From Octopus vulgaris (Eukaryota), in NCBI GenBank assembly GCA_951406725.2, contig OX597815.1:131874001-131938000 (forward strand): 64,000 nucleotides of DNA, read 5' to 3'. The translations under genes and the position numbers were made by a program. Position 1 is the first letter of the stretch. Every line of letters starts with the position of its first letter. The notes beneath the pieces were generated by a model. It had not been told where the DNA came from and did not search any database. It saw only the letters and a program-made list of their open reading frames with translations. This document shows positions 2,195-45,176 of this stretch, piece after piece.

Positions 2195-2882
2195 TATGGC
2201 ACGAGACCTAGTGTATAACCAGATGATTGCACTGAATCGCTGCATCCCAAATGATTTTGAAATCTTCATTCTCAGTAACTCCTTCTGGGGTTACCTCATA
2301 CCAAGTCTTTTCTCTTTTTGTAGGCCGTGATTTCCACAGAGGTCTCAATGGATCATTTTTGCTGTATTGTCAGGTGTTTTGTAATCGAGTTGAGACAGAG
2401 TATTCGCTAACGATGTACCATACCGTTTCCCGACTCACACTACACATCCTGGCTTTGTCGCTGTCGGTTGTGTTGTCGATTCTGCACTTCACATAGTTAG
2501 TCCTTAATGCGTGTTCCTGTGCTTCACATATGAGTTCTTTTGTCTCTATTTTCAAGTCACTCTTCCTCATCCATAGCCACCGGTCTTCTGTATCTGTCTT
2601 GGCATTCATATCTCTTGCAAACTGACCATAATATTTTCTCTTCCATGCTGTTTCTCTTTTTTTTTGTGTATTTTTCCTCTTTGAGTTTTTTCTTTCTTTA
2701 CACAATTATCAGTTTTAATGACGCCGGCTTTTTTCACATATTTCAACAATGATTCCATAGTATTTTTTACATACCACCCTAAACTACATCCCTCTGCTTC
2801 GATAGAATCCTGGCAACTGATCAAACTTCTCCTACACTTTCTTCTGAACAAGTACAGCATATCAGTGTCACTCTTAGGGTGA
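2195..2882 (-). mobile_element. R4/Dong-clade non-LTR retrotransposon internal fragment (pseudogenised)
   Basis: ORF 2370-2705 (YGQFARD..WLWMRKSDLKIETKELICEAQEHALRTNY..RMCSVSRETVWYIVSE) parallels the HGQY..WLKSAGLKAETEGFIMAAQDQSLYTRNY..CRFC region of the 1005-aa ORF; frameshifted. Confidence 0.85.
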
Positions 2883-2886
2883 AAAT

Positions 2887-2918
2887 ATTATTATTATTAT
2901 TATTACCATTATTATTAT

Positions 2919-3010
<92 letters not shown>
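2887..3010. repeat. (TTA)n/(CTA)n compound microsatellite
   Basis: Direct observation. Confidence 0.95.
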
Positions 3011-3539: not shown

Positions 3540-6500
3540 ATTTACTTTTAATCTGCATGTTTGATGCAATCACCTGCCGGGGCACACCCAGCGCCCTAGG
3601 GCAAGTGAAGGTTAAGAGTTGTTGAAATATAGCTGAAAGCTTGGGGAGGGGAAGTAGAGATATATCTCCATGTAATGCAAACACAAACATTTACATTGAT
3701 AGGGTTTTTCTAAGGATGTGGGCAGTACTTGTTAGCACAATCTTTTGGATTTCCTTGAGACATGGTTTTCCAGGGATATTGTCTAGGTGTTTCTGACATC
3801 CCTTTTTTATCATACCTAGGGCACCTACAATAACAGGAACAGTTTTTGTTTTAAGATTCCACATCCTCTGTATTTCGATTTCCAGGTCTTTATATTTACT
3901 AAGTTTGTCAAATTCCTTGACAGATACATTTTTATCAGTGGGGACGCTTACTTCTATTAGTCTGCAGGTATTTTCTTCCCTGTCTTTAACAATTATATCT
4001 GGTCGATTAGCCTTGATCGTTCTGTCAGTGTTGACTGGAAAATCCCAGAGGATGGTGACATCTTTACCTTCAACAACTGGCTGAGGATGGTGTTCATACC
4101 AGTTAGCAGGAGTGTCGGATTTGTAGTGTTTACATATCTTCCAATGTATATACTGTCCTACCCTATCGTGGCGATTTTTGTATTCGTTTGGTGTCAGCAC
4201 AGGACATCCCGAAACGAGATGGTCTATCGTTTCGTCAAATGTGTCGCAGAATCTGCATTTAGGGTCAGTACCGTTTCGGAGAACGTTAGCCTGGTAATTT
4301 CTGGTATACAAGCTTTGATCTTGTGCTGCCATTATGAAACCTTCAGTCTCTGCTTTCAATCCAGCGCTCTTCAGCCACTGATGGGTTGTTGCTTGGTCTA
4401 CATCAGCATTTTGGCTTCGGAGAATATATTGTCCATGCAGGGGCTTCTGGCTCCACCGCCTCTCAATTTGATTCTGCCCGTTCTTTTTTGCAGTCTGCTT
4501 GATTCGCTTTGCTTGCTTGGTAGCAGTGGTTTCCGGCTCTTCATCTGATTCAAGGTTAATGTCTAGTTCCCTTTCGAACTTATAAGCTTCCTTCACAATA
4601 GAATGTAGCTTTTTGCTGCTTTCGTGTTCGCACACAAGTCGCAGCATCCAGTCCTTTGTACTAGATAGGTACCTGTTCATTCCTACAGTAGAGGTCTTAT
4701 AGCACAGCTCTAATTGCATGATTCCTCTCCTCCCGCTGCTTCTAGGTAGGTACAAGCGGTCTACATCTGCCTTAGGGTGGTGCATGCTCTTGGATGTCAG
4801 TAACTTTCTTGTCTTCCTGTCCAAGCGTTGGAGTTCCGTAAGGTTCCAGTTAATGATGTTAAAACTGTACTGGACTACTGGAAGTGCCAGGGTGTTAATG
4901 GCCTCAATGCAATTTTTGGAGTTGAGTTCAGTCTTCAGTACAAGCCTTATTCTCCTGTAGTATTCCTTTCTTATTTTTTCCTTCATAGTAGCATGATGTA
5001 TACCATCTCCTTCGTTGATTCCTAGGTATTTGTAACTTTCCTGTGGGTCAAGTTCCTTGATGGTAGTGTCAATATCTAATTTAACAGAAGCTGTTTGCCT
5101 GAGCTTGCCTCTTACAAAAGTTGCTTTAGCACACTTATCAAGGCCAAAATCCATTCCGATATCATTGTTAAACTCTTTAACAGTTGTTAGCAGCCCTTCT
5201 AGCTCTTGGTCATTCCTGGCAAACAGCTTTAGGTCGTCCATATAGAAAAGGTGGTTTATTAACTTACTAAAAACTTTGTACCCATATCTGGTACTATCCA
5301 ATTCGTTTGAGAGTGGGATCAGTGCCATGCAAAAAAGTAATGGAGAGAGGGAGTCACATTGAAAGATGCCTCGTTTGATGTTGATGCTGTTGGACTGGCT
5401 CATCCCATTACTATGGCTTAGAAAGAGACGTGTGTTCCACATGGTCATGCTATTCTCTAAGAATTTTGAGACGACAGGAGAGATCTTGTATATCTCAAGG
5501 GCCTTGAGTATCCATTTATGTGGGACACTGTCATACGCTTTCCTGTAGTCTATCCATGCCATACTCAGGTTTTTGTTTTTGCTCCGGCAATTCTCTACAA
5601 TCATTCTGTTTATGAGCAATTGGTCTTTGCACCCATAAGAGTTTCTTTTACAACCTTTTTGAGCTTGTGGAAGGATAGAATTTTGTTCAAGGAAAGCGTA
5701 CATTCTCTCCGTTATTATGGATGTGAGGATTTTGTAGGTGGTGTTGAGACATGTTATTGGCCGGTAATTCTTTGGGTTTTTTGTGTCTTCGGTTTTAGGT
5801 AATAGGTAGGTGGTTCCTTCAGTCAGCCAAGCAGGTATTTGCTCTGGGTTCTGAATGACATCAGACAGAGATGCAGCGAGATGTTCGTGTACCTCTGTCA
5901 AACAATTCAGCCAGAAGTTAGGGATCCGATCCAGTCCTGGGGTTTTCCATTTATGAGCCTTCCTAAGGATACACCTTAGCTCCTCTATTCCTATTGCTTC
6001 CCATTTCTGTTCTTCAAATTCATCCAGTCTCTCTTTCTCACGTTCTATCCAGTCAGCCTCAGCATTAAACTCTTTTTCGTTGCTCCATACCTTCTTCCAG
6101 AACTCCTCCACTTCCTCAATCTTAGGTGGATCTTCTATGTGTATTTTATTTTTGCCAATTTCCCTATAAAATTTCTTTGCATCTGTCTTAAAAAATTTAT
6201 TTTGTCGATAAAATTTGTTTCTTTTGTCATACCTTCTAAGCCGTTGAGCTTTCAACTGTATCCGTTGTTTCAACAGTTCCTTAGTTGCAGGGAGGTTTAT
6301 GAGATCTTTGATTTTATATTTTTGCTTGATTTTTCTAGCTTTTCTCGGCTTAATATTCACTCCTCTAGCAAGCTCATCGAGAACTGAAACATCCGCCCGC
6401 AGAGATTCAATCTCTTTTTGTATCGCTACTTTCCACTTAGGAGGTTCATTGACATGCCTGGCCTTTTTCTTTGTCATCTTAATACCTAGTTGGGTAGTTA

Positions 6501-6771
6501 CTACTTTAGCAGTGGAATAAATGAGATTATTTAAGGTTGTCAAATCATTCCCCTTATTTCTTAAGATCTGTCCTAGGGCAACGTTATATGTCATGATTGT
6601 GTTGTTATTTCTTGTGCCATTTGAAAACTTTGGTAGTGGTTCTCTATTAACCATGTCAGTGAGCTCAATCTTGCCGAGTTCTCTCATAATGTCCACTTTT
6701 GCTTCCATAATCTTTTCTCTATTATTTACCTCAAATTCTATGTCATATCTATTTTGGTTTTCTTGAGGAAA
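3540..6771 (-). mobile_element. R4/Dong-clade RLE non-LTR retrotransposon, young, probably 5'-truncated, inserted in (TAA)n
   Basis: Single long ORF, ~150-nt 3' UTR with a GC-rich patch (3571-3602), (TAA)n on both flanks. The frame stays open upstream of the ATG up to the microsatellite, implying truncation. Confidence 0.93.
3691..6708 (-). CDS. Reverse transcriptase / CCHC zinc knuckle / restriction-like endonuclease polyprotein (1005 aa)
   Basis: RT motifs KTPGLD, NYRPITCL, WIDYRKAYDSVPH, GIFQCDSLSPLLF, HLFYMDD, YKYLG; zinc knuckle CRFC-x8-H-x4-C; RLE motifs RHD, PDII..IEVSVP..KLSKY. Confidence 0.95.
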   Translation of the reverse strand: MEAKVDIMRELGKIELTDMVNREPLPKFSNGTRNNNTIMTYNVALGQILRNKGNDLTTLNNLIYSTAKVVTTQLGIKMTKKKARHVNEPPKWKVAIQKEIESLRADVSVLDELARGVNIKPRKARKIKQKYKIKDLINLPATKELLKQRIQLKAQRLRRYDKRNKFYRQNKFFKTDAKKFYREIGKNKIHIEDPPKIEEVEEFWKKVWSNEKEFNAEADWIEREKERLDEFEEQKWEAIGIEELRCILRKAHKWKTPGLDRIPNFWLNCLTEVHEHLAASLSDVIQNPEQIPAWLTEGTTYLLPKTEDTKNPKNYRPITCLNTTYKILTSIITERMYAFLEQNSILPQAQKGCKRNSYGCKDQLLINRMIVENCRSKNKNLSMAWIDYRKAYDSVPHKWILKALEIYKISPVVSKFLENSMTMWNTRLFLSHSNGMSQSNSINIKRGIFQCDSLSPLLFCMALIPLSNELDSTRYGYKVFSKLINHLFYMDDLKLFARNDQELEGLLTTVKEFNNDIGMDFGLDKCAKATFVRGKLRQTASVKLDIDTTIKELDPQESYKYLGINEGDGIHHATMKEKIRKEYYRRIRLVLKTELNSKNCIEAINTLALPVVQYSFNIINWNLTELQRLDRKTRKLLTSKSMHHPKADVDRLYLPRSSGRRGIMQLELCYKTSTVGMNRYLSSTKDWMLRLVCEHESSKKLHSIVKEAYKFERELDINLESDEEPETTATKQAKRIKQTAKKNGQNQIERRWSQKPLHGQYILRSQNADVDQATTHQWLKSAGLKAETEGFIMAAQDQSLYTRNYQANVLRNGTDPKCRFCDTFDETIDHLVSGCPVLTPNEYKNRHDRVGQYIHWKICKHYKSDTPANWYEHHPQPVVEGKDVTILWDFPVNTDRTIKANRPDIIVKDREENTCRLIEVSVPTDKNVSVKEFDKLSKYKDLEIEIQRMWNLKTKTVPVIVGALGMIKKGCQKHLDNIPGKPCLKEIQKIVLTSTAHILRKTLSM

Positions 6772-6827
<56 letters not shown>

Positions 6828-6860
6828 CATCATTATTATTATTATTTATTTATTTATCTA
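6772..6860. repeat. (ATT)n microsatellite
   Basis: Direct observation. Confidence 0.95.
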
Positions 6861-15584: not shown

Positions 15585-15637
<53 letters not shown>

Positions 15638-15755
15638 AATCAAGGAACGGCCATAATAGGCCATTCACCCACTAGAAATAACAGCCAAAAGCTTTAACCG
15701 CAAAATAACATTAATTCCGTAAACCAGGAGAAAATTGAAAAACTTTTACCCTGTA

Positions 15756-15862
15756 ATTTCTTAGACGATGCACCGTTTCATCTACCGTTTAATGGTAAAC
15801 TAACCTGATTAAATTAAATCAAGCCAATCCACCATAGGCCCTTAGACTCATCAGTAAGAAAT
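15756..15862 (-). ncRNA. Type I hammerhead ribozyme (family A, inverted arm)
   Basis: Reverse complement of the motif at 16816-16922; all core elements present. Confidence 0.85.
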
Positions 15863-16325
15863 AGCCAAGTCGGAACAGATATTTTTCACGAGGCATTCCT
15901 CTTGCTACCTCGGCAATATCTGACCTAAAATTTTCAAATCGTCGCACCCGCGCCAAATTACGGAATTAATGTTTACGGAATTAATGTTATTTTGCGGTTA
16001 AAGCTTTTGGCTGTTATTTCTAGTGGGTGAATGGCCTATTATGGCCGTTCCTTGATTGTGATGTTGAACGTAAAAATAGTTTATGACTATTTAATTTTTT
16101 CCTACTAGGCCGCTGGTGGCAAAAGAATTCTACAAAAATTTTTTTTTGCCACCCTATATTGATTAATTATGAATTTTCTGGTTAGTTCCGTAATGGAATC
16201 GGTGGCTTATATTTATTTGCTGCCGATAAATTTGGCGCGAGTGCGACGATTTGAAAATTTTAGGTCAGATATTGCCGAGGTAGCAAGAGGAATGCCTCGT
16301 GAAAAATATCTGTTCCGACTTGGCT

Positions 16326-16432
16326 ATTTCTTACTGATGAGTCTAAGGGCCTATGGCGGATTGGCTTGATTTAATTTAATCAGGTTAGTTTACCATTAAA
16401 CGGTAGATGAAACGGTGCATCGTCTAAGAAAT
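16326..16432 (+). ncRNA. Type I hammerhead ribozyme (family A, unit 1)
   Basis: Helix I ATTTCTTA/TAAGAAAT; CTGATGA 16334-16340; helix II GTCTA/TAGAT; GAAA 16409-16412; helix III CGG-TGCA-TCG; GTC triplet, predicted cut after 16424. Confidence 0.88.
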
Positions 16433-16815
16433 TACAGGGTAAAAGTTTTCAATTTTCTCCTGGTTTACGGAATTAATGTTATTTTGCGGTTAAAGCTTTT
16501 GGCTGTTATTTCTAGTGGGTGAATGGCCTATTATGGCCGTTCCTTGATTGTGATGTTGAACGTAAAAATAGTTTATGACTATTTAATTTTTTCCTACTAG
16601 GCCGCTGGTGGCAAAAGAATTCTACAAAAATTTTTTTGCCACCCTATATTGATTAATTATGAATTTTCTGGTTAGTTCCGTAATGGAATCGGTGGCTTAT
16701 ATTTATTTGCTGCTGATAAATTTGGCGCGAGTGCGACGATTTGAAAATTTTAGGTCAGATATTGCCGAGGTAGCAAGTGGAATGCCTCGTGAAAAATATC
16801 TGTTCCGACTTGGCT

Positions 16816-16922
16816 ATTTCTTACTGATGAGTCTAAGGGCCTATGGTGGATTGGCTTGATTTAATTTAATCAGGTTAGTTTACCATTAAACGGTAGATGA
16901 AACGGTGCATCGTCTAAGAAAT
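16816..16922 (+). ncRNA. Type I hammerhead ribozyme (family A, unit 2)
   Basis: Same architecture; predicted cut after 16914, 490 nt from the first. Confidence 0.88.
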
Positions 16923-17145
16923 TACAGGGTAAAAGTTTTTCAATTTTCTCCTGGTTTACGGAATTAATGTTATTTTGCGGTTAAAGCTTTTGGCTGTTAT
17001 TTCTAGTGGGTGAATGGCCTATTATGGCCGTTCCTTGATTGTGATGTTGAACGTAAAAATAGTTTATGACTATTTAATTTTTTCCTACTAGGCCGCTGGT
17101 GGCAAAAGAATTCTACAAAAATTTTTTTTTGCCACCCTATATTGA

Positions 17146-17204
<59 letters not shown>

Positions 17205-34117: not shown

Positions 34118-34122
<5 letters not shown>

Positions 34123-34739
34123 AATCAAGGAACGGCCATAATAGGCCATTCACCCACTAGAAATAACAGCCAAAGCTTCAACCGCAAAATAACATTAATT
34201 CCGTAAACCAGGAGAAAATTAAAAAACATTTACCCTGTAATTTCTTATACGATGCACCGTTTCATCTACTGTTTAATGGTAAACTAACCTGATTAAATTA
34301 AATCAAGCCAATCTTCCATAGGCCCTTAGATTCCTCAGTAAGAAATAGCCAGAACGGAACAGATATTTTCACGAGGCATTTCTGTCCCTGCCTCGGCAAT
34401 ATCTGACCTAAAATTTTCAAATCATCGCACTCGCGCCTATGGAAGATTGGCTTGATTTAATTTAATCAGGTTAGTTTACCATTAAACAGTAGATGAAACG
34501 GTGCATCGTATAAGAAATTACAGGGTAAATGTTTTTTAATTTTCTCCTGGTTTACGGAATTAATGTTATTTTGCGGTTGAAGCTTTGGCTGTTATTTCTA
34601 GTGGGTGAATGGCCTATTATGGCCGTTCCTTGATTGTGATGTTGAACTTATAAATGGTCTATGACTATTTAATTTTTTCCCACTAGGCCGCTGGTGGCAA
34701 AAAAAATTCTACAAAATTTTTTTTGCCACCCTATATTGA

Positions 34740-34745
<6 letters not shown>
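34118..34745. mobile_element. Family A retrozyme-like element, second insertion (fold-back arm plus partial unit)
   Basis: Same start (ATCACAATCAAGG) and end (GCCACCCTATATTGATTAAT) as 15633-17150; (TA)n both sides; inversion junction near 34435. Confidence 0.88.
34240..34346 (-). ncRNA. Type I hammerhead ribozyme (family A variant)
   Basis: ATTTCTTA-CTGAGGA-ATCTA..TAGAT-GAAA-CGGTGCATCG-TA-TAAGAAAT. Confidence 0.85.
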
Positions 34746-34826
<81 letters not shown>

Positions 34827-34828
<2 letters not shown>

Positions 34829-35098
34829 GAGGCACAATGGCCTAGTGGTTAGGGCAGCGGACTCGCGGTCGTTGTGAGTTTTTATTGAGCGAAAATACGT
34901 AAAAGCTCCACGACCTCCGGCAGGGAGTGGTGATCCCTGCTGTACTCTTTCACCACTCTTTCCCCCACTCTTTCTTCTGTTGGCCTGCTCGCTTAGCCAG
35001 CGGGGTGGCGTCATTCGAAGGCTAAAACAATGCGAACGCATTGTGACCAGCGATGTGTAACTACATCTGATGGACTGGTCGGTCACGTGATGGTGATG

Positions 35099-35103
<5 letters not shown>
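34827..35103 (+). mobile_element. SINE family 3 variant (same head, different 3' part)
   Basis: Head matches 26530-26680; tail unrelated, ending in GTGAT repeats. Confidence 0.85.
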
Positions 35104-36097: not shown

Positions 36098-36252
36098 TGA
36101 AATCTACATTATTTACATTTCGCGGGTATTTGTCCTCATCTTGTTTATTGTTAACACAAATTTTCGGTCGATATACCCTCCACACTTCATCAGGTGTCTT
36201 GGGGAAATTTCGAACCTGGGTTCTCATTCCTAATGTATTTTTCGATGTTACA
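36098..36252 (-). mobile_element. Short element with degenerate minimal hammerhead beside (ATT)n (family D)
   Basis: 36153-36197 minus reads ACAC-CTGATGA-AG..CC-GAAA-attt-GTGT; helix II decayed. Confidence 0.5.
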
Positions 36253-38421: not shown

Positions 38422-39134
<713 letters not shown>

Positions 39135-39409: not shown

Positions 39410-40681
39410 CAGAGTGGGGAAGCAAAATTTACAATATTTTGAGACAGGGATTGAAAGACAGTGTATGGCCAATTAGTTTATTGAAATTCATGAGAATTTA
39501 TTTGCCACAAGAAAATTTACATAATAGCAAATGTTTTTATTCTATGTCCTCCTTCTTTCTCAATAACTGCCTTCACACGCTTCCTGAAACCTGCACAAGT
39601 ATTCCTCAAATATTAGGGAGACAACTTCTCCCATTCTTCTTTAATATTATCTTTAAGAGAGTCGACATTTCTGTGTGATGTTCTATTGCTAGCATATTAT
39701 AAAACGCTCCAAATTCAGAGGGCGGCCATAAATTAGATTAGAAGGCGGCCATAAACATGATTCCAAAAAATTGCTAAAGATTTGCAGAAATCTTGTATTA
39801 TTCTAGCTGTGTGGTCTGGAGCACCATCCTGTGTTCATACATAATTACCATCTGGGTATTTCTGGGTAGTTGGCTTTAAGCCATGGCAATACCTGGTGAC
39901 TCACAGTCTTATAGTAAGGATTAACATTGATCTTTTCATCAGCTTAGTAGAATTTTATAGGCATTTTCTTTCCATCGGAAACCACAACACCAAAAGTCAT
40001 AACTTGAGCAGGATGTTTTGTTTTGAATGTTCCCTTAACCTCAGCTGTCGATTTTGTGATAAATATGTCATTTGTGCGGTTCAGAACAGCATCGACAGTG
40101 AAGATCTTTTCATCTGAAAAGATCGTTACAATGAAGGACTTTTTCTTGAACCATGTAATAATTTTCTTGCACCTTTCCAATCTCTTTTCTTTCATAGCTG
40201 TTGTCAACAAGTGTTTTAGTGTTCTTGTGTAAGGTTTTAATCTCAAATTATATTTGATTGCATTTCTAATGGTCTTGTTGTCTACCACAAGTTCAATTGC
40301 CATTTTTCTCATGGATTTGGTTGGAGCCTTTATGATTTTGGATTTGAGAGCTTTAAAAGCTTTGGTATGTCTTTTGTTGATTCCTCCACTTCTAGACTTC
40401 CTCGTAATATTTTTGCTCATAGTCATTCTATTCTTTACACTATAAACAGTCTTTATGGACACTCCAACTATTCTTGAAATCTCCTTTGGAGTGACGAGTG
40501 CATTCAGCAAATCACACACTCTTTGATGTTTGCTTTCCTGATTACTCATATGCACAAAAGTTTCTGAAGAGGTAAGGATAATAGTGTTAAGTATGATTAT
40601 TACATCAATATATGCTAGCTTTCAGAGGAATTGACTTGCTGAGAAAAAACATCTTAATGTTCATTGTAAATTTTGCTTCCC
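39410..40681 (-). mobile_element. maT (DD37D-like) Tc1/mariner transposon remnant
   Basis: ORF 39944-40555 with HTH region, FSDEKIFTVD and TKHPAQVM.FGVV.SDG; downstream QDGAPDHT and WPP; TIR GGGAAGCAAAATTTACAAT at both ends. Confidence 0.9.
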
Positions 40682-41435: not shown

Positions 41436-43169
41436 TAGGGCATGCGATGATTTTTCTGGTTGGGGAAGCAATGACCAAAATTTTCTGTCGCATAGATATT
41501 TGAATCAAATTGACGTATTCAAATTAATTTTTTTTAAATCACAAGCAAAACTTGCATATTTTATTGAAATATTAATTCAATCATTCTCTCTTTCTTGTTG
41601 AAAATGTTGATAGCATCATTGTAGGTATCGTTCTTAATACTTTTTGAAACGGTTTTTCTATGCCCATTAGATCTAAACTGCTCAACCTTTCTTGTCCCAG
41701 CGAATTTCTTGTATAATTATGAATTCTCCTTAGGTATGAAAAGGAGCGCTTCACTGAAGCACTTGTTGCTGGTAGTCTTAATATTAATTCACAAAGCTTC
41801 GTTAACTGGAGCAAATCATCAACTAATCCACTATTATGCAGAATATAAAGTAAATCTTGAACGGATTTTTCTTTTAGTTCAGCATCTTTGTACAAGGCAG
41901 TAAGTTCGCTTCTTAACTTTTGGCTGTCGACATGGTCTCCATAAGAATGTTTAAGGCAAGTTAGAGATGTTTCCTGGATGTCGTTATTTTGTCTCACTGG
42001 ATCGAGAAGCGCTGAAAAATGTAATTTATTTAAATTTTGAAATCGTATCTCAAAGTGCTCGCAAATTAAATCTATAATTTTGTAGAACATGTCTGTATCT
42101 TCTGTTTCAATTTTTTCTTTTCTTCATTTAAGGATGAATGCCATCAACATTACTACAAAATTTAGAAAATTCATGTTTTCTTTCAAAACTTTCACAATTT
42201 CATTTACTTTACGAATACAGTAGGATATGTCAAATGATTTTGTTATTTGTTTTCTGCAGGATGTCAAGTGCTGCATTTGTGTAAATAAAAATATCTCTAA
42301 CACATTTAATAAAAAATTGAATTCACAATTTTGTAAATTAGAATACAACGCCTGGACATAGGTATAGCATTCCGTGTCCTATTTACTTAAATCATCAATG
42401 AAGTTTAGGAATTAATCAACAGGTTGTTCATGAATATTCATGAACTATTTCTACCAACGAATAAGCAATTTAATTTCAGTATCTAATAGACACACACCCT
42501 CGATTGACTTACAAAAAAAATAACGAAAATGACTTTATCTGTGAAAGAAGCTCAACGCATTCTTGAATATTTGCACCCGCTTGAGACAGAACTAGAATTA
42601 ATCTATGAGCCATACAATGAACAAAAAAGGGGTGTTGTGTAATTTGAAAAAGTATAAAATATTAGTTGAATAAATGCAGAAAACTACGCGCGTGCTATTT
42701 TTTCACCGTTTTTTTTTTTTTTCTGATAGAAGCAGAATGTCGATTTGTTTCCTTTTCTGATGTAAGTGTTACATAACAACGTAAGATTATATGTATCATA
42801 GGTATTGCGAATTGGCAGAAACTTAATCAAAGCGTATAAGTATTTATTAGCATCTAAAAGTATTCATTATCAGCTCTTACAAGAAAAACATTGTCTCTGC
42901 GTCATTTTTATCGAAAAAAAATGTGAAAATATTACAGCCAAAAGGATGCAACAGCTTGTGTTGCTTCCCTTTCACAGATTCTTTGTGTCGTCTGCCACTC
43001 CTTGTCGTCTCATGCTAATTCCGACAATAGAAGTCTGAATGCTATAATGTTATGTAGTTTATATTAATTTTACAGAACATTAGAAGAACGATCTTATATA
43101 ATTTTAATTTTGTTTCTATTATTTTTAATGAAAGCATTGCTTCCCTTGTTTCCCTGGACCGCACGCCTA
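41436..43169 (-). mobile_element. hAT transposon remnant (ZMYM1/Tip100-like transposase)
   Basis: hATC dimerisation motif LILRLPATSASVKRSFSYLRRI..RNSLGQERLSSL; imperfect TIRs TAGGGCATGCG / CGCACGCCTA. Confidence 0.88.
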
Positions 43170-43297: not shown

Positions 43298-43960
43298 GGT
43301 ATGAGAAGTAGTGGTGTCAAGAAGGCCCAACGGTATTAGGTTATGCGGAGTAAGTGCTATGGACAGACTATAGTTAAGCTCCAGGTTCGATAAGGATACG
43401 AATGAGGAGTCCAACGCAGATCGTGTATTAGCAAGCATATATATAAAAATTTACAGAATGAGATAAAAAAAAATCCAAGGCTGTGAATAGTTTACAGAAC
43501 ATATATAAAAAGGTCTTACAGCTGTTTCCGGGATATTTTATATATTCCTTATCAGAGACGGTGTGAGAAAATGTTTAAGTAATGGTTATTATAGAGAAGA
43601 TATGAAATACAGAGTGAAGTTGAGCAATGAAAACAGATGTGAGAAACGTAAGGATATTGTATTTGCAGTTCTACCATTTAAGAAGAATGGTGTATATATA
43701 AGTTTCCTGTACCTTGTGTGTGAGTTCCAATGGTGTTTATAGCTGGTTATTCCAAGCATAGAGTCTTGTAAACAGTGTTATTCGATCGAGGGCTGTTTTG
43801 AAGTGACTTAAAAGTTAGGAATGTGTTTGTAAGGTCAAATTAATAATATTAAAACAGTAAAGAGAAAGAAACAGGAAGAGAAAAGAAAAAATAAGGGAGA
43901 GAGACAATAAACAAGTGAAGAAAGACGTGTGTTAGCTAGTGGTCAGGATAAAATGATAGA
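43298..43960 (-). mobile_element. Family B pLTR-like element with hammerhead-like motif
   Basis: 43513-43559 minus reads GTCT-CTGATAA-GGAATAT..ATATCCCG-GAAA-CAGCTG-TA-AGAC; inverted homologue at 44698-45180. Confidence 0.78.
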
Positions 43961-44697: not shown

Positions 44698-45176
44698 CTA
44701 TCATTTTATCCTGACAACTAGCTAACGCACCACTTTCTCCACTTGCTTATTGTCTCTCTCCCATTTTCCCCTATTCTCCTGTTTTTTATTTGACCTTACA
44801 AAACATATTTCCAACTTTTAAGTCACTTCAAAACAGCCCTCAATCGAATAACACCGTTTACAAGACTCTACGCCTGGAATGACCAATTATAAAGAACATT
44901 GGAACTCACACCCAAGGTACAAGAAGCTTATATATACACCATTCGGCTTGAATAATCGAACTGCAAATACAATATACTTACTTATCTCATGTCTGTTTTA
45001 ATTCCTCCACTTCACTCTGCATTTCATATCTTCTCTATAATAGCTATTACTTAAACATTTTCTCGCACCGTCTCTGATGAAAGGGTGTATAAAACATCCT
45101 GGAAACAGCTGTAAGACCTTTTTATAAATGTTCTGTACACAGCCATGGATTTTTTATCTCATTCAGTTAATTTTTA

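What the first reader, a model, noticed from the sequence alone, without database searches (positions are those of the whole stretch)
34240..34346. Sister copy changes the hammerhead core only at tolerated positions
Seen: relative to the 16-kb copies, the 34-kb hammerhead has CTGAGGA for CTGATGA (variable N7), GTA for GTC (variable H17) and an A-U pair for G-U at the base of helix II (still purine-pyrimidine). Invariant core bases and helices I and III are unchanged. Inference: three core changes, all allowed by the consensus, point to selection for catalysis in the source lineages. The sample is only two loci.
Basis: partly seen in the sequence, partly recalled or inferred. Interest (0 to 1): 0.72.

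Follow-up and report, generated by a model that had tools for sequence, protein, structure and literature searches.

The report
Retrozyme hammerhead core conserved across subfamilies
The two spots are copies of two subfamilies of a common 490-base jumping repeat whose predicted self-cutting RNA motif has changed only at its permissive positions across the family, which likely reflects selection for self-cleavage in the copies that spread, a pattern already described in other animals.

Summary
Observation confirmed base for base. The minus-strand type I hammerhead at 34240-34346 has N7=G, A10.1-U11.1 and GUA; the three 16-kb copies have U7, G·U and GUC. Both belong to a ~490-nt tandem, non-coding repeat with about 2,500-3,000 hammerhead copies, inserted in (TA)n with Penelope-type inverted arms, i.e. 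a non-LTR retrozyme. The 34-kb form is an amplified subfamily, not a decayed copy.

Two loci alone could not show selection (P≈0.5). Family-wide, 0 of 11 invariant core sites change on an 83-locus tree against 93 of 212 other sites (p=0.002). N7 takes all four bases, H17 is C or A and never G, and all three helices show compensatory changes. Private mutations hit the core about as often as the flanks, so selection likely acts in source RNAs, not on insertions.

Corrections: G10.1 is derived in the 16-kb lineage, and 10.1·11.1 is a loose pair (A·C, U·U and A·A also occur; G-C in one copy). Cleavage is untested, and a genomic cut-site footprint test was negative. Known kind; the same pattern is published for cricket satellites, and this scan found this family before on other DNA.

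The parts
34240..34346 (-). Complete type I hammerhead motif, 34-kb subfamily (N7=G, A10.1-U11.1, GUA); predicted cut between 34248 and 34247
34332..34338 (-). CUGANGA box (C3-A9), N7=G at 34334
34249..34263 (-). G12-A13-A14 plus self-complementary helix III (hairpin -0.2, two-molecule duplex -17.5 kcal/mol, predicted)
34264..34331 (-). Helix II (5 bp) with internal loop and a long AU/GU-rich distal hairpin
34118..34437 (-). Inverted arm of the 34-kb insertion, unit positions 6-326, ending in (TA)n
   Evidence: L047
34435..34747 (+). Second arm of the 34-kb insertion, unit positions 121-432; lacks the CUGANGA box, carries the same GUA (H17 at 34510); 100% complementary to the other arm over 206 nt
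15633..15959 (-). Inverted arm of the 16-kb insertion, unit positions 1-326, hammerhead at 15756-15862
15971..17150 (+). Tandem arm of the 16-kb insertion (partial unit, full 490-nt unit 16229-16718, unit ending near position 430); hammerheads at 16326-16432 and 16816-16922 (U7, G·U, GUC)

Best explanation
The 34-kb and 16-kb motifs are type I hammerhead sequences of two amplified subfamilies of a ~490-nt non-coding tandem repeat whose 11 invariant core bases never change between lineages while N7, H17 and the 10.1·11.1 pair do, which likely reflects selection for self-cleavage of the element's RNA in the copies that were the source of new insertions. Likely cycle: tandem arrays are transcribed (inferred); hammerheads cut the multimer into unit-length RNA, probably as dimers through the self-complementary helix III (predicted); monomers would circularise, as shown for coral, mussel and axolotl retrozymes (PMC7229834); a Penelope-type RT/endonuclease supplied in trans would copy the RNA into (TA)n from two fixed start points, unit positions 326 and 432 (the footprint is shown, the enzyme is inferred and not identified). 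Only RNAs with a working core would found subfamilies; inserted copies then decay neutrally (shown by private mutation rates).
For: The 34-kb form is a subfamily: 19 of 46 listed matches are 100% identical over 223 nt, at 12 loci including the window's own. Tree of 83 loci: 0 of 11 invariant sites change vs 93 of 212 other sites, p=0.002, base-matched 0.0008; 4 of 4 tolerated sites vary. N7 shows U, G, C and A with 4-6 changes, joint-highest of 490 sites on one tree. Genome-wide 1458 of 1469 anchored copies keep CUGA-GA; H17=G in 0 copies, U in 3. Compensatory changes: 7 pairs and 20 cells changed on both sides, 6 of 500 and 0 of 500 shuffles as high; all four pairs 10.2-10.5 are swapped in the ~70-74% identical sister family, three helix I pairs in L191, and helix III stays self-complementary in 23 of 24 lineages. 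Private mutations: 2 of 1580 core observations vs 77 of 51463 elsewhere. Penelope-type footprint: 56 of 56 two-armed loci pair a 326 end with a 432 end, 161 of 175 3' ends lie at these two places, flanks mostly (TA)n.
Against: No cleavage assay. 5' ends of insertions show no peak at the cut site genome-wide: 29 junctions at positions 195-197 vs 23 at 187-189 and 35 at 201-203. Within the main family alone the core test is weak (p=0.097 in the 62-locus chromosome-1 sample, 0.21 in its 34 loci found through a non-hammerhead anchor, 0.039 in all 98 loci); the power comes from divergent lineages, where alignment noise may inflate the background count. Most of the unit is conserved too (119 of 212 background sites show no inherited change). 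The canonical G10.1-C11.1 pair occurs in 1 copy, and the catalytic fold is never the predicted minimum for a monomer. In an Anolis Penelope element, catalytic mutants did not impair insertion in vitro and no reads ended at the cut site (PMC11167929, passages); 8 of 9 Xenopus retrozyme dimers did not cleave in vitro (10.64898/2026.07.22.740005). No autonomous partner sharing sequence was found.
Confidence: 0.75

Rival explanations
1. The hammerhead fold is kept as a structure (a binding or stability element for the Penelope protein or for host factors), and cleavage is slow or incidental.
For: G10.1-C11.1 nearly absent and mismatches tolerated at the base of helix II; no cut-site peak of 5' ends; the Anolis hammerhead cut only with protein present and was dispensable for insertion in vitro (PMC11167929); PLE minimal hammerheads cleave poorly in vitro (PMC4209133).
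Against: Single-stranded catalytic bases and the not-G rule at H17 are kept, which is more specific than helix conservation; the axolotl motif with a U·U at the base of helix II still cleaves, better as a dimer (PMC7229834 section 15).
Confidence: 0.17
2. There is no selection: the family is young, few sites have changed, and the pattern is chance or mutation bias at N7 and H17.
For: Two-locus P=0.51; within-family p=0.04-0.21; many non-core sites are also invariant.
Against: p=0.002 on the full tree; double compensatory changes; N7 and H17 are not hypermutable after insertion (1 private change in 521 observations; 0 of 891 C17 copies have a non-U N7).
Confidence: 0.05
3. The host keeps the ribozymes functional at their insertion sites, for example for transcript processing.
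For: None found here; regulatory roles are speculated in 10.64898/2026.07.22.740005.
Against: Private mutations hit the invariant core at 1.27 per 1000 and about 1.25 per 1000 genome-wide (11 copies, 1469 x 6 sites), like flanks at 1.3-1.5 per 1000; many arms are truncated and lack half the core, including 34435-34747.
Confidence: 0.03

Closest known systems
Metazoan non-LTR retrozymes (PMC7229834: abstract and other passages, sections 14 and 15 read; 10.64898/2026.07.22.740005: parts 1-3 of 5 read)
   Same: Non-coding tandem units of a few hundred nt, one type I hammerhead per unit, many subfamilies, Penelope-like elements in the same genome; a weak base of helix II as in axolotl HHR_Amex2 (U·U).
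   Different: Unit 490 nt (150-450 in PMC7229834; within the 51-972 range of the 2026 preprint); helix II extended by a long hairpin, helix I closed at long range; circular RNA and cleavage not shown here; neither paper's text that I read covers cephalopods.
pDo500 satellite hammerhead of Dolichopoda crickets (PMC2837043, passages read)
   Same: The same evolutionary signature: core nearly invariant, most uridine-turn changes at U7, compensatory changes in stems including 10.1-11.1, dimeric fold proposed.
   Different: There the comparison is across species of a satellite; here it is across young dispersed subfamilies in one genome, inherited and private changes are separated, and H17 differs between whole subfamilies (altered in 1-2 of 198 cricket sequences).
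Hammerheads in pseudo-LTRs of EN+ Penelope-like elements (PMC4209133 parts 1-2 of 4; PMC8557442 and PMC11167929 passages)
   Same: Type I topology, palindromic helix III, 5'-truncated tandem and inverted insertions, optional tail, microsatellite targets.
   Different: No ORF in the unit; tail about 106 nt rather than 30-40; G10.1-C11.1, described there as highly conserved, is found in 1 copy.

Membership tests
Type I hammerhead ribozyme | CUGANGA, GAAA and UH core in type I order | tested here: met
Type I hammerhead ribozyme | Three helices supported by covariation | tested here: met
Type I hammerhead ribozyme | Quasi-conserved G10.1-C11.1 pair | tested here: not met
   A-U, G·U, A·C, U·U, A·A seen; G-C in 1 copy genome-wide. 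Not an absolute requirement: axolotl HHR_Amex2 has U·U and cleaves
Type I hammerhead ribozyme | Match to an Rfam hammerhead model at gathering score | tested here: not met
   0 matches in the window; the long helix II insert is the likely reason (inference)
Type I hammerhead ribozyme | Loop I-loop II tertiary contact | not tested
   No canonical loop I or short loop II is apparent in the folds; not modelled
Type I hammerhead ribozyme | Site-specific self-cleavage | not testable with these tools
   Indirect genomic test negative; only contigs, no raw reads, were available
Metazoan non-LTR retrozyme | Head-to-tail units each with a type I hammerhead | tested here: met
   arrays of about 10 units seen
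Metazoan non-LTR retrozyme | No coding capacity | tested here: met
   No ORF of 150 aa or more within the element; a frameshifting indel separates the subfamilies
Metazoan non-LTR retrozyme | Accumulation as unit-length circular RNA | not testable with these tools
   Contigs cannot tell a circle from a tandem transcript
Metazoan non-LTR retrozyme | Derived from or mobilised by a Penelope-like element | tested here: inconclusive
   Insertion footprint is Penelope-type; the one active family tested shares no sequence with the unit

The most novel reading that the evidence does not exclude
The ribozyme is under stabilising selection for a moderate, dimer-dependent cutting rate rather than for maximal activity. 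The family avoids the canonical G10.1-C11.1 pair, and the subfamilies are alternative tunings (GUC with U7 and a self-inhibiting core mispairing in the 16-kb form; GUA with a free N7 and less misfolding in the 34-kb form), giving a natural allelic series whose copy numbers can be set against measured rates.
Probability: 0.2. Interest if true: 0.55.

Novelty: new member of a known kind. Interest (0 to 1): 0.35.

Why it matters
Whether hammerhead cleavage is needed for Penelope-type and retrozyme mobility is open: it was dispensable in vitro for an Anolis element. Separating inherited from private mutations shows the core is kept in source lineages and not in inserted copies, which argues that the motif serves the element's own cycle in vivo. 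The family offers natural variants at N7, H17 and 10.1·11.1 for kinetic comparison. The kind of element and the conservation pattern are already published, so the advance is modest.

Tried and rejected
(1) Cut-site footprint: in 164 sampled 5' ends, 19 fell at unit positions 197-215, p=2.5e-5 against a uniform null. Matched genome-wide patterns gave 29 junctions at 195-197, 23 at 187-189 and 35 at 201-203, so there is no peak; rejected as evidence of cleavage. Symmetric junctions at 197 (three loci) also occur at other short palindromes. (2) N7-H17 epistasis: non-U N7 occurs in 0 of 891 C17 copies, but the C17 clade holds only 28% of tree length, P=0.14-0.30; not supported. (3) Autonomous partner: the window's Penelope-like ORF family has intact 811-aa copies but no similarity to the unit; the adjacency in L151 is an insertion into its (TA)n end. 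Only this one family was tested. (4) Single-circle origin of arrays: within-array divergence 0.40% vs 0.47% to the nearest other locus (64 arrays), 188 of 218 minor alleles in one unit, 8 variants fixed in a whole array and absent elsewhere; compatible, not decisive. (5) Expression: no RNA holder listed; four runs guessed to be RNA hold the unit as contigs only. (6) Rfam: no match. (7) A short ATG-led frame through the unit is broken by an indel between subfamilies. (8) Literature: searches for octopus or cephalopod with hammerhead, Penelope or retrozyme listed no paper describing this family; supplements were not read and may list it. No paper with rates for A-U or G·U at 10.1·11.1 was read; that such pairs slow cleavage is recalled.

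Full report
Observation. The minus strand of 34240-34346 is a complete type I hammerhead motif: an 8-bp helix I, CTGAGGA, a 5-bp helix II with a long distal hairpin, GAAA, a self-complementary helix III and GTA before the predicted cut between 34248 and 34247. Background divergence is 19 substitutions in 322 bases. From two loci, an unchanged 11-base core has P=0.51, so that part is uninformative; three core changes all on tolerated sites has P=0.009, post hoc.

What the element is. The window lies in a 2.8-Gb animal genome; earlier notes of the scan call it octopus, which I did not establish. Both loci are insertions of a ~490-nt non-coding unit. A pattern for the whole motif counts 2856 copies, sister family included; a 3' anchor counts 4270. 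Insertions sit mostly in (TA)n and are 5'-truncated, tandem and often two-armed. 161 of 175 3' ends lie at unit position 326 or 432, and 56 of 56 two-armed loci pair one of each. This matches the tandem/inverted structure, tail and microsatellite bias of Penelope-like elements (PMC8557442, passages) and internal initiation of reverse transcription (PMC11167929, passages). Tandem units with type I hammerheads are non-LTR retrozymes (PMC7229834, passages and sections 14-15; 10.64898/2026.07.22.740005, parts 1-3 of 5). The 34-kb form is an amplified subfamily: 19 of 46 listed matches are identical over 223 nt, and the two arms of the insertion are 100% complementary over 206 nt, so its differences predate insertion.

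Selection test. I sampled 98 loci: 34 on chromosome 1 found through a non-hammerhead anchor, 28 through helix anchors, 36 by similarity to either subfamily. Variants shared by two or more loci occur at 0 of 11 invariant sites and at 92 of 355 sites outside the hammerhead (p=0.039); in the 62 chromosome-1 loci it is 0 of 11 vs 69 of 355 (p=0.097), and in the 34 anchor-independent loci p=0.21. I then added L191 (83% identical) and three loci of a ~70-74% identical sister family that the non-hammerhead anchor also finds, and dropped three sister loci found only through the core. On this tree of 83 loci (79 of the 98 had a copy long enough), 0 of 11 invariant sites change against 93 of 212 others (p=0.002; base-matched 0.0008), while 4 of 4 tolerated sites change. 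Alignment noise in the divergent rows may inflate the background. N7 shows all four bases with 4-6 changes, joint-highest of 490 sites on one tree. Genome-wide, H17 is never G and is U in 3 copies. Private single-copy changes hit the core at 1.27 per 1000 and the rest at 1.50; genome-wide 11 of 1469 copies have a changed CUGA-GA base, about 1.25 per 1000. So copies decay neutrally and the filter likely acts on source RNAs.

Structure. Across 24 lineages picked from 64 haplotypes, 7 pairs and 20 cells change on both sides (6 of 500 and 0 of 500 shuffles as high; related sequences can beat this control), and slid registers pair only 31-44%. MAFFT misaligned helix II of the sister family; anchored on the core, all four pairs 10.2-10.5 are swapped there, three helix I pairs are swapped in L191, and helix III stays self-complementary in 23 of 24 lineages, including a double change in its loop. 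The helix III hairpin is marginal (-0.2 kcal/mol) and the two-molecule duplex strong (-17.5), which predicts a dimeric ribozyme as described for animal type I motifs (PMC4209133, parts 1-2 of 4). In contigs of four public runs from four coded organisms, none of the 40 listed differences (28 more not shown) lies on an invariant base, while N7, 10.1 and H17 vary.

With the sister family as outgroup, G7 is derived in the 34-kb lineage (through C7), G10.1 is derived in the 16-kb lineage, and C/A17 splits at a weakly supported root. The 10.1·11.1 pair is loose: A-U in 15 of 24 lineages, G·U 1, A·C 3, U·U 1, A·A 4, and G-C in one copy genome-wide. Tolerated need not mean neutral: GUA cleaved more slowly than GUC after transcription but faster during it in a viroid hammerhead (PMC1636495, passages), and the predicted share of the catalytic monomer fold is 0.060 for the 34-kb and 0.0013 for the 16-kb form, where the core can mispair with GUC. 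These folding numbers are rough.

What failed. 5' ends do not peak at the cut site (29 vs 23 and 35), although the small sample suggested it. N7-H17 epistasis is not significant. No autonomous partner was identified. Cleavage and circular RNA remain untested.

Mechanism. Shown: motif, subfamilies, inherited-change pattern, covariation, neutral decay of copies, insertion footprint. Inferred: transcription, dimeric self-cleavage, circularisation, copying by a Penelope-type enzyme. Confidence 0.75. The main rival is selection on the fold without needed cleavage (0.17), since an Anolis hammerhead was dispensable for insertion in vitro and 8 of 9 Xenopus dimers did not cleave.

Novelty. The same signature (core invariant, U7 variable, compensatory stems) is published for the cricket pDo500 satellite (PMC2837043, passages). 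Searches listed no paper on this family; supplements were not read. This scan noted the family before on other DNA. Verdict: a real, well-supported new member of a known kind; interest 0.35.

Noticed in passing
window 45064-45120 (+), with inverted partner near 43551-43828: Another type I hammerhead motif of a different family: 4-bp helix I, 7-bp helix II with an A·G mismatch at 10.1·11.1, palindromic helix III, GUA; lies in 278-nt inverted repeats.
   Followed up: partly
window 36162-36193 (-): Decayed hammerhead-like motif of a third repeat family.
   Followed up: no
window 55081 to beyond 56800 (-): Penelope-like ORF fragment (GIY-YIG-like end and Cys linker recognised from memory; no Pfam hit); the family has many ~95% identical copies with open frames of 811 aa or more and ends in (TA)n; no canonical hammerhead found in 8 long copies.
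   Followed up: partly
window 3691-6849 (-): Open 1052-aa frame with an RVT_1 domain, a young LINE-type element.
   Followed up: no
window 38475-39134: Palindrome with 330-nt arms, 99% complementary, with (TA)n at its centre.
   Followed up: no
window 34828-35100 (+): tRNA-like SINE-type repeat directly beyond the (TA)n flank of the 34-kb insertion (class recalled, not tested).
   Followed up: no
window 41581-42123 (-) and 39944-40621 (-): hAT transposase fragment (Pfam Dimer_Tnp_hAT) and a Tc1/mariner-like frame (resemblance recalled; no Pfam hit).
   Followed up: no
L143-L149 (G000:C1, e.g. 35672706-35674856): Sister retrozyme family, 474-nt unit, ~70% identical, with A·A at 10.1·11.1 and the same two-ended insertion pattern.
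   Followed up: yes
L196 (G000:C14:10475874-10475957): The only copy found with canonical G10.1-C11.1; it resembles the divergent L191 lineage and may keep the ancestral pair.
   Followed up: partly
L184, around position 5919 (+) and an inverted copy: Hammerhead of another family with a long helix II and G·U at 10.1·11.1, beside a Penelope-like copy.
   Followed up: no
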